Below are positions 29,053-29,477 of a stretch of DNA of 64,000 nt, piece after piece. The stretch is from Octopus sinensis (Eukaryota). Both the position numbers and the translations under genes were made by a program. How positions within the stretch are numbered: the stretch's first letter is position 1; every line of letters begins with the position of its first letter. Under the pieces are notes generated by a model, which saw only the letters and a program-made list of their open reading frames with translations, made no database searches and was not told the origin of the DNA. The stretch covers positions 116,932,001 through 116,996,000 of the forward strand of contig NC_043003.1 of the NCBI RefSeq assembly GCF_006345805.1, written 5' to 3'.

Positions 29053-29477
29053 ACATTATTTACATTTAACGGATATTTGTCATCTTGTTTGTTGTTAGCA
29101 CAACTTTTCGGCTGATATACCCTCCGGACTTTTTATCGTGTCTTGGGGAAATTTCGAACTGGGTTCTCATTTCTAAGGTGTTATTCTTCTTCTTATTATT
29201 ATTATTCAGGCCATTGCTTGGAATCGAACTCGGAAGCTTGGAATTAGTAGCCTGCGCTCTTAACCATTACGCCATATGCCCGTGGGCAATTATGGAGTGA
29301 ATATGCTGGTCATATCTGCACTCGGTCTGCTTAGGAAGTTGTTTTGTCCTAGCATATGTGCTGCTTCTTTTAGTTTTCGTATTTTCCAGTGGTGTTCTCT
29401 GTCTATTATTTTAACTTCATCCCACAGGGGGAGGTGCTCTCTATTTTTCATTCATGATCAGCAATACAAGATTTACT
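29053..29477 (-). mobile_element. 3' end of Penelope-like retroelement: GIY-YIG C-terminus, stop, tRNA-like segment, (AAT)n, degenerate hammerhead
   Basis: Minus translation SKSCIADH (frameshift) NREHLPLWDEVKIIDREHHWKIRKLKEAAHMLGQNNFLSRPSADMTSIFTP* with TAA at 29290-29292. tRNA-like 29208-29281. Homologous to 7600-7895. Confidence 0.82.

What the first reader, a model, noticed from the sequence alone, without database searches (positions are those of the whole stretch)
29053..29477. Penelope-like retroelement whose terminal repeat carries a tRNA-like Pol III promoter upstream of a hammerhead ribozyme
Seen (minus strand): a GIY-YIG C-terminal peptide (KSCIADH...H...WDEVKIIDRE..W..RKLKEA) ends at TAA 29290-29292. 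About 10 nt later a tRNA-like unit with A and B boxes begins (29281-29208), followed by (AAT)n, a hammerhead-type motif and an AATGTAAAT tail. The same stop-tRNA-(AAT)n-hammerhead order recurs at 7600-7933, so it is a family architecture rather than a chance SINE insertion. Neither copy has a TTTT Pol III terminator between the tRNA unit and the tail. Established: PLEs encode GIY-YIG nucleases and carry minimal hammerheads in their pseudo-LTRs; tRNA-derived repeats with hammerheads are known from schistosome SM-alpha. Inference: a PLE with a built-in Pol III promoter that could produce short self-cleaving, SINE/retrozyme-like RNAs mobilised by the PLE enzyme. I do not know of a description of this arrangement but cannot search.
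Basis: partly seen in the sequence, partly recalled or inferred. Interest (0 to 1): 0.8.

Follow-up and report, generated by a model that had tools for sequence, protein, structure and literature searches.

The report
Penelope retrotransposon with tRNA-type promoter
This is a broken copy of an octopus jumping gene (a Penelope-like element) whose terminal repeat starts with a tRNA-derived promoter; most copies begin at that promoter and the coding region avoids the stop signal of RNA polymerase III, so the element is likely read by the polymerase that normally makes only short non-coding RNAs.

Summary
The stretch is a decayed 3' piece of an octopus Penelope-like element (PLE) family: RT plus C-terminal endonuclease. 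Its pseudo-LTR reads tRNA-derived head (A/B boxes), (AAT)n, in-frame start ATG, minimal hammerhead, tail. The head follows the ORF in 27 of 30 DNA-picked and 30 of 30 protein-picked copies. Of 100 position-ordered head copies, 87 start within the head's first 22 nt. These short SINE-like copies carry PLE marks: inverted partners, a tail on one of the pair, and TSDs round the whole unit. Template-jump joints land exactly on +1, and one near-complete copy runs from the head through the ORF into a second pseudo-LTR. The 2.6-kb unit has no shared TTTT: T is used at 0 of 16 synonymous sites that would create one (about 5 expected, P about 0.002), while control PLEs and LINEs show no avoidance. Best reading: Pol III likely transcribes both short and full-length RNA. 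No RNA reads were available, so this is inferred. Corrections: the cited TAA is not the family's stop, and this copy's hammerhead core is broken. Nine literature searches found no Pol III-driven PLE; Repbase and Dfam could not be checked.

The parts
29302..29477 (-). 5'-truncated 3' end of the PLE ORF (C-terminal endonuclease, CCHH region), with a stop and frameshift
   Evidence: matches family ORFs ending RKDRRILDL*
29288..29301 (-). remnant of the spacer between ORF and head; about 57 nt with the true stop are deleted just 5' of it
29278..29287 (-). inferred transcription start (+1 = 29287), a GCCC-AC-GGGC palindrome, 13 nt before the A box
   Evidence: 5' ends of copies pile up here
29207..29287 (-). 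tRNA-derived head (closest to tRNA-Arg(TCT) among 10 isotypes held); A box 29274-29264, B box 29230-29220
   Evidence: no cloverleaf call
29180..29206 (-). (AAT)n microsatellite
29168..29170 (-). ATG that opens the RT ORF when the pseudo-LTR lies in front of it
   Evidence: in frame in 10 of 12 distinct tandem copies
29097..29145 (-). minimal type I hammerhead, core decayed in this copy; lies inside the N-terminal coding stretch
29053..29066 (-). AATGTAAAT repeat, 3' end of this copy (no 30-nt tail)
7575..7933 (+). second copy: last ORF codons, head (+1 = 7617, A box 7630-7640, B box 7674-7684), (AAT)n, ATG 7768, hammerhead core 7803-7838, tail to 7933
7434..7572 (-). inverted 5'-truncated partner of the second copy (hammerhead and end repeats, no tail)
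   Evidence: (126 of 140 identical)
7420..7431 (.). left copy of a 12-bp target-site duplication
7934..7945 (.). right copy of the 12-bp target-site duplication

Best explanation
This is a Penelope-like retrotransposon family whose pseudo-LTR begins with a tRNA-derived A/B-box head, and RNA polymerase III likely starts at that head and reads both the short pseudo-LTR RNA and, through a terminator-free ORF, the full-length RNA. Steps: (1, shown) the unit is head-(AAT)n-ATG-hammerhead-tail-RT-endonuclease-stop, and in tandems the head lies directly in front of the ORF. (2, inferred from copy ends) RNAs begin at +1, 13 nt before the A box. (3, shown as sequence, inferred as selection) no TTTT is kept anywhere on the sense strand, so Pol III could read the 2.6-kb unit and on into the next pseudo-LTR. 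(4, inferred) the PLE enzyme primes near the hammerhead/tail of whichever pseudo-LTR it binds; priming on short or prematurely ended RNAs gives the abundant solo, SINE-like copies, and priming at the far pseudo-LTR gives ORF-linked copies. (5, inferred) at the RNA 5' end the cDNA folds back on the palindrome, pairs with a second cDNA, or jumps to another RNA's 3' end, which rebuilds tandems and so puts a promoter in front of an ORF again. (6, from the literature on minimal hammerheads) the hammerhead would cut only as a dimer, so most templates stay uncut. How an uncapped RNA is translated is open.
For: Head fixed behind the ORF: 27 of 30 and 30 of 30. 5' ends: 87 of 100 position-ordered head copies start within +1..+22, 3 reach 5-15 nt further and 10 reach into the ORF; upstream of the head, copies run on about 325 nt on average (my sum). 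In 30 hammerhead-picked copies, 4 of 16 end in the 58-nt head body but 10 of 12 end in the first 22 nt (read by eye). Of 35 short copies with the whole palindrome, 16 have foreign DNA directly before +1 without any fold-back. Five of 8 ORF-fragment/head joints are at exactly +1, some with untemplated A-rich letters. PLE marks on short copies: inverted partner in 50 of 90, exactly one tail in 38 of 45 pairs, TSD of 8 nt or more in 7 of 26 against 0.48 in shuffled pairs. No non-CpG allele separates short from ORF-linked copies. ATG in frame in 10 of 12 tandem copies, open in 3, and the 9-nt end repeats keep the frame. Six of 7 ORF-start copies that reach the upstream head begin in it, and one (L444) runs through the ORF to a second pseudo-LTR. 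TTTT: 0 in 2.6 kb of L186 and L293 (about 6 expected); no site shared by more than 6% of 274 alignments; T at 0 of 16 synonymous sites that would create TTTT, P 0.0015. Controls use T as expected: 6 vs 5.4, 39 vs 31.7, 30 vs 33.9, 26 vs 25.9; a second PLE family of this genome has 6-10 runs per copy.
Against: No transcript was seen. The TTTT result rests on one ancestral 2.6-kb unit: shuffles of single copies give P 0.002-0.08, two of the 16 sites may be one site, and G-runs are also about halved in the pooled copies (38 vs 74.5). 32 of 90 short copies show fold-backs and many start at +5..+22, which a palindrome-driven hotspot would also give. An early contrast (only 4 of 8 ORF-start copies stopping at +1) was not reproduced in the unbiased set (6 of 7), so that test does not separate the models. 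L444 holds 4 T-runs in the stretch counted, none shared by the family. 3' ends inside the ORF are not enriched at TTT (2 of 42). Pol III is held to be too weakly processive for autonomous elements (PMC10886601), and its RNAs lack a cap (own knowledge). The only dissected PLE promoter is a TATA-less LINE-like one (PMC2377424).
Confidence: 0.62

Rival explanations
1. Two promoters: Pol III makes only the short SINE-like RNAs, while the coding RNA comes from Pol II (a second promoter in the pseudo-LTR or host read-through); the lack of TTTT is chance or A-rich bias.
For: Capping and processivity arguments; the D. virilis precedent; 7 best-match ORF-start copies extend upstream through or past the head, so some templates began upstream; single-copy shuffle P up to 0.08.
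Against: 0 of 16 opportunity sites with clean controls; 6 of 7 unbiased ORF-start copies and L444 begin in the head; upstream extension is also expected from terminator-free Pol III read-through of tandems or from circles.
Confidence: 0.22
2. No Pol III activity: the head is a passenger (an old SINE insertion), and copies end there because reverse transcription of long Pol II RNA stalls or folds back at the GCCC-GGGC and CATATG palindromes.
For: Fold-backs in 32 of 90 short copies; flipped palindrome loop in 6 of 30 short vs 0 of 21 ORF-linked copies, P 0.036; ends spread over 22 nt.
Against: 16 of 35 boundaries at +1 and 5 of 8 template-jump joints at +1 have no fold-back; a stall is expected on the 3' side of a hairpin, not after it (inference); +1 sits at the canonical 10-15 nt before the A box; it does not explain the TTTT purge.
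Confidence: 0.1
3. The head is a processing signal: RNase P cuts a long transcript at a tRNA-like fold and so makes the 5' end.
For: The unit is tRNA-derived and tRNA-sized.
Against: Ends peak 6 nt upstream of the mature tRNA start, with 0 of 100 at that start; no cloverleaf is called or predicted.
Confidence: 0.03
4. The short copies are an independent SINE lineage that borrowed the PLE tail, and the PLE took the head later by recombination.
For: Short copies are about ten times more numerous.
Against: Non-CpG variants occur at the same ratios in both classes (20:14 vs 50:38; 16:4 vs 46:19), and the shared tail is simply the next 30 nt of the ORF. This rival concerns history and is compatible with Pol III use.
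Confidence: 0.03

Closest known systems
Canonical endonuclease-positive PLEs (Penelope/Poseidon type)
   Same: One RT + C-terminal endonuclease ORF, pseudo-LTR tandems, inverted 5'-truncated partner, 30-40-nt tail on one end, minimal hammerhead, promoter in the upstream pseudo-LTR (PMC8557442, PMC4209133, PMC2377424).
   Different: The promoter region is a tRNA-derived A/B-box head rather than a LINE-like promoter with an intron; 5' ends are fixed at +1; no TTTT on the sense strand; the hammerhead is translated in frame.
Schistosome SM-alpha / Sj-alpha hammerhead SINE-like repeats
   Same: Pol III promoter followed by a hammerhead, upstream unit drives the downstream one (as reviewed in PMC6765202; the original paper was not held).
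   Different: Those are non-coding tandem repeats; here the same module is the terminal repeat of a coding PLE, and the short copies are dispersed monomers or inverted pairs.
Animal non-LTR retrozymes
   Same: Short hammerhead-bearing non-coding elements related to PLE pseudo-LTRs and probably moved by PLEs (PMC7229834; bioRxiv 10.64898/2026.07.22.740005).
   Different: Retrozymes are said to lack promoters (PMC7761336) and move as circles in tandem arrays; these copies have an internal promoter and a fixed linear 5' end.
TRIMp3 elements (Cassandra, Helenus, Ajax)
   Same: Small-RNA-derived Pol III promoter inside a terminal repeat, possibly gained by SINE insertion (PMC10886601).
   Different: Non-autonomous LTR elements of at most about 1.3 kb; that paper expects autonomous partners to use Pol II. 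Here the autonomous element itself carries the promoter.
tRNA-derived SINEs (SINE2)
   Same: Head geometry, size of about 250-300 nt, TSDs, copy number in the ten thousands.
   Different: The partner is a PLE, and the short unit is the partner's own terminal repeat, not a separate family.
R2 retrotransposons
   Same: A coding retroelement RNA made without Pol II and carrying a self-cleaving ribozyme near its start (PMC6765202, PMC7761336 passages; Pol I origin recalled).
   Different: R2 is co-transcribed with rDNA and has no promoter of its own.

Membership tests
EN+ Penelope-like element | Single ORF with reverse transcriptase | tested here: met
   Pfam RVT_1 E 1.2e-9 on L184; one continuous coding frame inferred from broken copies; no intact ORF found
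EN+ Penelope-like element | C-terminal GIY-YIG endonuclease with CCHH motif | tested here: inconclusive
   CVYSIPCSCG..YKGET..H..H layout seen; Pfam GIY-YIG not hit; atlas neighbours carry GIY-YIG in 13-14% of members; hhalign 64% to a fragment that hits GIY-YIG below cut-off; fold too poor to use
EN+ Penelope-like element | Pseudo-LTR tandems, inverted 5' partners, tail on one end only | tested here: met
   40 of 47 pairs have exactly one tail
EN+ Penelope-like element | Minimal type I hammerhead in the pseudo-LTR | tested here: met
   CTGA(T/A)GA, extra base before G10.1-C11.1, 5-bp helices I and II, palindromic C15.2-G16.2 as described in PMC4209133; Rfam does not score it
EN+ Penelope-like element | RT phylogeny within a named PLE clade | not tested
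   No named reference sequences at hand; lack of the extra zinc-finger linker points to Penelope/Poseidon rather than Neptune/Nematis
tRNA-derived SINE (short copies) | A and B boxes 30-35 nt apart, 10-15 nt from the 5' end | tested here: met
   33-nt spacer, 13 nt from +1
tRNA-derived SINE (short copies) | TSD round the whole unit | tested here: met
   7 of 26 vs 0.48 in shuffled pairs, maximum 3
tRNA-derived SINE (short copies) | Separate lineage that shares only a 3' tail with a LINE | tested here: not met
   No diagnostic alleles; unit is the PLE's own pseudo-LTR
tRNA-derived SINE (short copies) | Transcription by Pol III | not testable with these tools
   Only assembled contigs were offered
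Non-LTR retrozyme | Tandem arrays of hammerhead monomers without a promoter | tested here: not met
   Copies are monomers or inverted pairs with a head and a fixed 5' end
Non-LTR retrozyme | Self-cleavage and circular RNA | not testable with these tools
   Needs bench work or raw RNA reads
tRNA gene | Cloverleaf fold | tested here: not met
   ARAGORN 0, no Rfam tRNA hit, no cloverleaf in the MFE fold

The most novel reading that the evidence does not exclude
An autonomous, protein-coding retrotransposon that has switched to RNA polymerase III: a captured tRNA promoter drives a 2.6-kb terminator-free RNA that is both the template and the message for RT-endonuclease, with the hammerhead inside the coding frame, and that sheds tens of thousands of SINE-like solo repeats as a by-product.
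Probability: 0.4. Interest if true: 0.92.

Novelty: new variant of a known kind. Interest (0 to 1): 0.78.

Why it matters
Retrotransposon textbooks split promoters cleanly: coding elements use Pol II, SINEs use Pol III. A PLE whose ORF has been purged of Pol III terminators would break that split and would imply cap-independent translation of a long Pol III RNA. Even the weaker reading gives a SINE-like population made by a PLE from its own terminal repeat, a direct route by which hammerhead SINEs such as SM-alpha and retrozymes could arise. The fixed 5' end also makes open PLE questions testable: how tandems are rebuilt (template jumps land on +1) and what the minimal hammerhead is for. The synonymous-site TTTT test is a cheap screen for further Pol III-driven coding elements.

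Tried and rejected
Rfam and ARAGORN score neither head nor hammerhead. RNA evidence: no RNA holder listed, and only contigs could be laid; depth there ranks nothing. The contigs of two further coded organisms show fold-back loose ends at the head's 5' edge, a weak hint that the family and the boundary are shared. AlphaFold model unusable, pLDDT 37, no fold search run; PDB sequence search gave only weak RT hits. DNA of the close relatives (55-61% identity) could not be had: the metagenome scan returned only two distant PLEs, used as controls, so whether the head is shared outside octopuses is open. The contrast in stop rate between ORF-start and all copies (4 of 8 vs 87 of 100) vanished in the unbiased set (6 of 7) and was dropped as evidence. 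Internal 3' ends are not at TTT. Non-canonical terminators were too few to test. MFE folding did not give the hammerhead fold for the monomer (-13.8 against -12.2 kcal/mol for the imposed helices) and the dimer run was not decisive. The source tRNA is not pinned: Arg(TCT) scored 63 against a shuffled maximum of 53, but only 10 isotypes were held; other SINE heads of this genome match at only 63-73%. One row of the alignment was given in the wrong orientation and is ignored. Two papers (PMC108972, PMC5785218) were not held; no supplements were read, and those of PMC13282606 and PMC8557442 may list this family.

Full report
Observation. The stretch 29053-29477 (minus) holds the end of a coding region, a tRNA-like head, (AAT)n, a hammerhead-type motif and an AATGTAAAT end, and the same order lies at 7575-7933. 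The genome is an octopus, judged from a source's label on a family protein. Three corrections: this copy has lost about 57 nt with the true stop, so the cited TAA is spacer sequence; its hammerhead core is decayed; and the head begins at 29287. The second copy has an inverted partner at 7434-7572 and a 12-bp TSD round the pair. ARAGORN and Rfam score neither head nor hammerhead.

The family. Longer copies give an RT (Pfam RVT_1, E 1.2e-9) followed by a C-terminal domain with the PLE endonuclease layout. Pfam GIY-YIG itself does not hit; atlas neighbours and a 64% profile match support it weakly. The unit is about 2.6 kb. No intact ORF was found. Exact 32-mers of ORF end, head and hammerhead occur 459, 1264 and 2385 times. 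With retention rates of 8 of 30, 4 of 60 and 9 of 160 this gives roughly 1,700, 19,000 and 42,000 copies, with wide error.

Is the head part of the element? Yes. It follows the ORF in 27 of the first 30 position-ordered ORF matches and in 30 of 30 copies picked with a foreign PLE protein. A hammerhead follows the head in 89 of 100 loci; 5 more have an inverted PLE partner, and several of the rest are cut by long (AAT)n or other insertions, so free head-(AAT)n units are at most 6 of 100. A box, 33-nt spacer and B box fit the consensus quoted in PMC8969392 (passages). The best tRNA match among 10 isotypes held is Arg(TCT).

Where do copies begin? I took all 100 listed places of the 1264 head matches. 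Ten reach into the ORF, three reach 5-15 nt upstream, and 87 begin within the first 22 nt of the head. Upstream of the head, truncation is slow, a mean run of about 325 nt (my sum), and in the head body 4 of 16 copies end over 58 nt against 10 of 12 in the first 22 nt (30 hammerhead-picked loci, read by eye). Of 35 short copies with the whole +1 palindrome, 18 have a fold-back, 16 foreign DNA and 1 element DNA before it. None of 100 begins at the mature tRNA start.

Who moved the short copies? The PLE. 50 of 90 have an inverted partner, 38 of 45 pairs carry the 30-nt tail on exactly one member, and 7 of 26 plain copies have a TSD of 8 nt or more round the whole unit against 0.48 in shuffled pairs. 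These are the marks described in PMC8557442 (passages). Short and ORF-linked copies share non-CpG variants at the same ratios; the two differing head columns are CpG sites open to my selection on an exact pattern.

The promoter faces the ORF. The 'tail' is the continuation into the ORF's 5' part. An ATG just behind (AAT)n is in frame with the RT in 10 of 12 distinct tandem copies and open in 3, so the hammerhead is coding, and the 9-nt end repeats keep the frame. All 64 exact tail-ORF junctions were examined. Seven reach the upstream head and six begin in it; L444 begins there with a fold-back and runs through the ORF to a second pseudo-LTR with tail. Most others hold only 20-300 nt of ORF and then jump to another pseudo-LTR. 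Of 11 jumps that reach the head's 5' part, 8 land at it and 5 of these 8 exactly on +1, some with untemplated A-rich letters. This is what an RT does when it runs off a real RNA 5' end (inference).

No terminators. L186 and L293 have no TTTT in 2.6 kb where about 6 are expected, while TTT and AAAA are normal. Across 274 alignments no T-run site is shared by more than 6% of copies. At 16 synonymous sites where T would complete TTTT, the commonest codon never has T, against about 5 expected from the element's own usage (P 0.0015; two sites may be one). A second PLE family of this genome, two distant PLEs and ten LINE ORFs show no such avoidance. Against this: the copies descend from one unit, single-copy shuffles give P 0.002-0.08, and G-runs are also halved in pooled copies.

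Results against or neutral. Fold-backs are common (32 of 90) and the palindrome loop is flipped in 6 of 30 short copies, so a structural hotspot contributes to how ends are joined. A first contrast in stop rates did not hold up. Seven best-match ORF-start copies extend upstream of the head, so multimeric or circular templates also existed, as proposed for PLEs in PMC4209133 (parts 1-2 of 4 read). Internal 3' ends are not at TTT. No raw RNA reads were offered.

Mechanism and odds. Pol III from +1 for both short and full-length RNA: 0.62. Pol III for short RNAs only: 0.22. Passenger head with an RT hotspot: 0.10. RNase P signal or independent SINE: 0.03 each. That the Pol III RNA is also the translated message is a further step: 0.4 overall.

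Comparison with the literature. The dissected D. virilis Penelope promoter is LINE-like and lies in the pseudo-LTR (PMC2377424, abstract and passages). Schistosome hammerhead repeats are Pol III-driven but non-coding (PMC6765202, passages). Retrozymes are described as promoterless (PMC7761336, passages) and as non-autonomous PLE derivatives (PMC7229834, passages; bioRxiv 10.64898/2026.07.22.740005, abstract and passages, no mention of tRNA or promoter). TRIMp3 elements carry Pol III promoters in LTRs, and their autonomous partners are expected to use Pol II (PMC10886601, passages). Octopus and squid papers mention PLEs or SINEs without this layout in the passages seen (PMC13282606, PMC4758252, PMC6962438). 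Nine full-text searches listed no PLE with a tRNA-type promoter; subscription papers, Repbase and Dfam were not covered. Earlier notes of this scan describe non-coding tRNA-bearing PLE-dependent repeats in other animals (unchecked), none with the head inside a coding PLE.

Verdict. A member of the EN+ PLEs, with a promoter arrangement I could not find described. The SINE-like population is shown; Pol III use is a well-supported inference; translation of that RNA is the bold, untested step.

Noticed in passing
L341-L360 (e.g. G000:C7:99339842-99343303): A second, abundant PLE family with a CxxC linker (Neptune-like), C-rich ORF, a T-run right after the stop and a long CA-microsatellite 3' region; used as control only.
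   Followed up: partly
L157, L158, L166, L172, L173, L266: Hammerhead-tail pieces joined through (AAT)n to the 3' ends of other repeats; suggests template switching at (AAT)n, which may be how the tRNA head was gained.
   Followed up: no
L004, L008, L013, L021: The same 14-nt deletion between short direct repeats removes the start ATG in 4 of the first 30 loci.
   Followed up: no
L391-L445: Most tail-ORF junction copies hold only 20-300 nt of ORF before a jump or an end, implying many RNAs with 3' ends early in the ORF; a few end in short A-runs.
   Followed up: partly
L264/L271 (G000:C4:154068161-154072264): Head-to-head pair, both starting at the tRNA head and ending 390-460 nt into the ORF without a 3' pseudo-LTR.
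   Followed up: partly
L107 (by order of the ARAGORN output): Seven tRNA-Cys copies within 3 kb, several about 155 bp apart.
   Followed up: no
window 11694-13369 (-), 30249-30713 (+), 58963-59514 (+): LINE fragments: RT and zinc-binding pieces with Pfam hits at 11694-13369, an endonuclease piece at 58963, an unlabelled LINE-like frame at 30249.
   Followed up: partly
window 7060-7215 (-) and 29640-29830 (-): Copies of another SINE-like repeat beside both PLE pieces.
   Followed up: no
proteins P0001-P0012: Close PLE relatives (55-61% identity) in public assemblies; their DNA could not be fetched, so whether they carry a tRNA head is open.
   Followed up: partly
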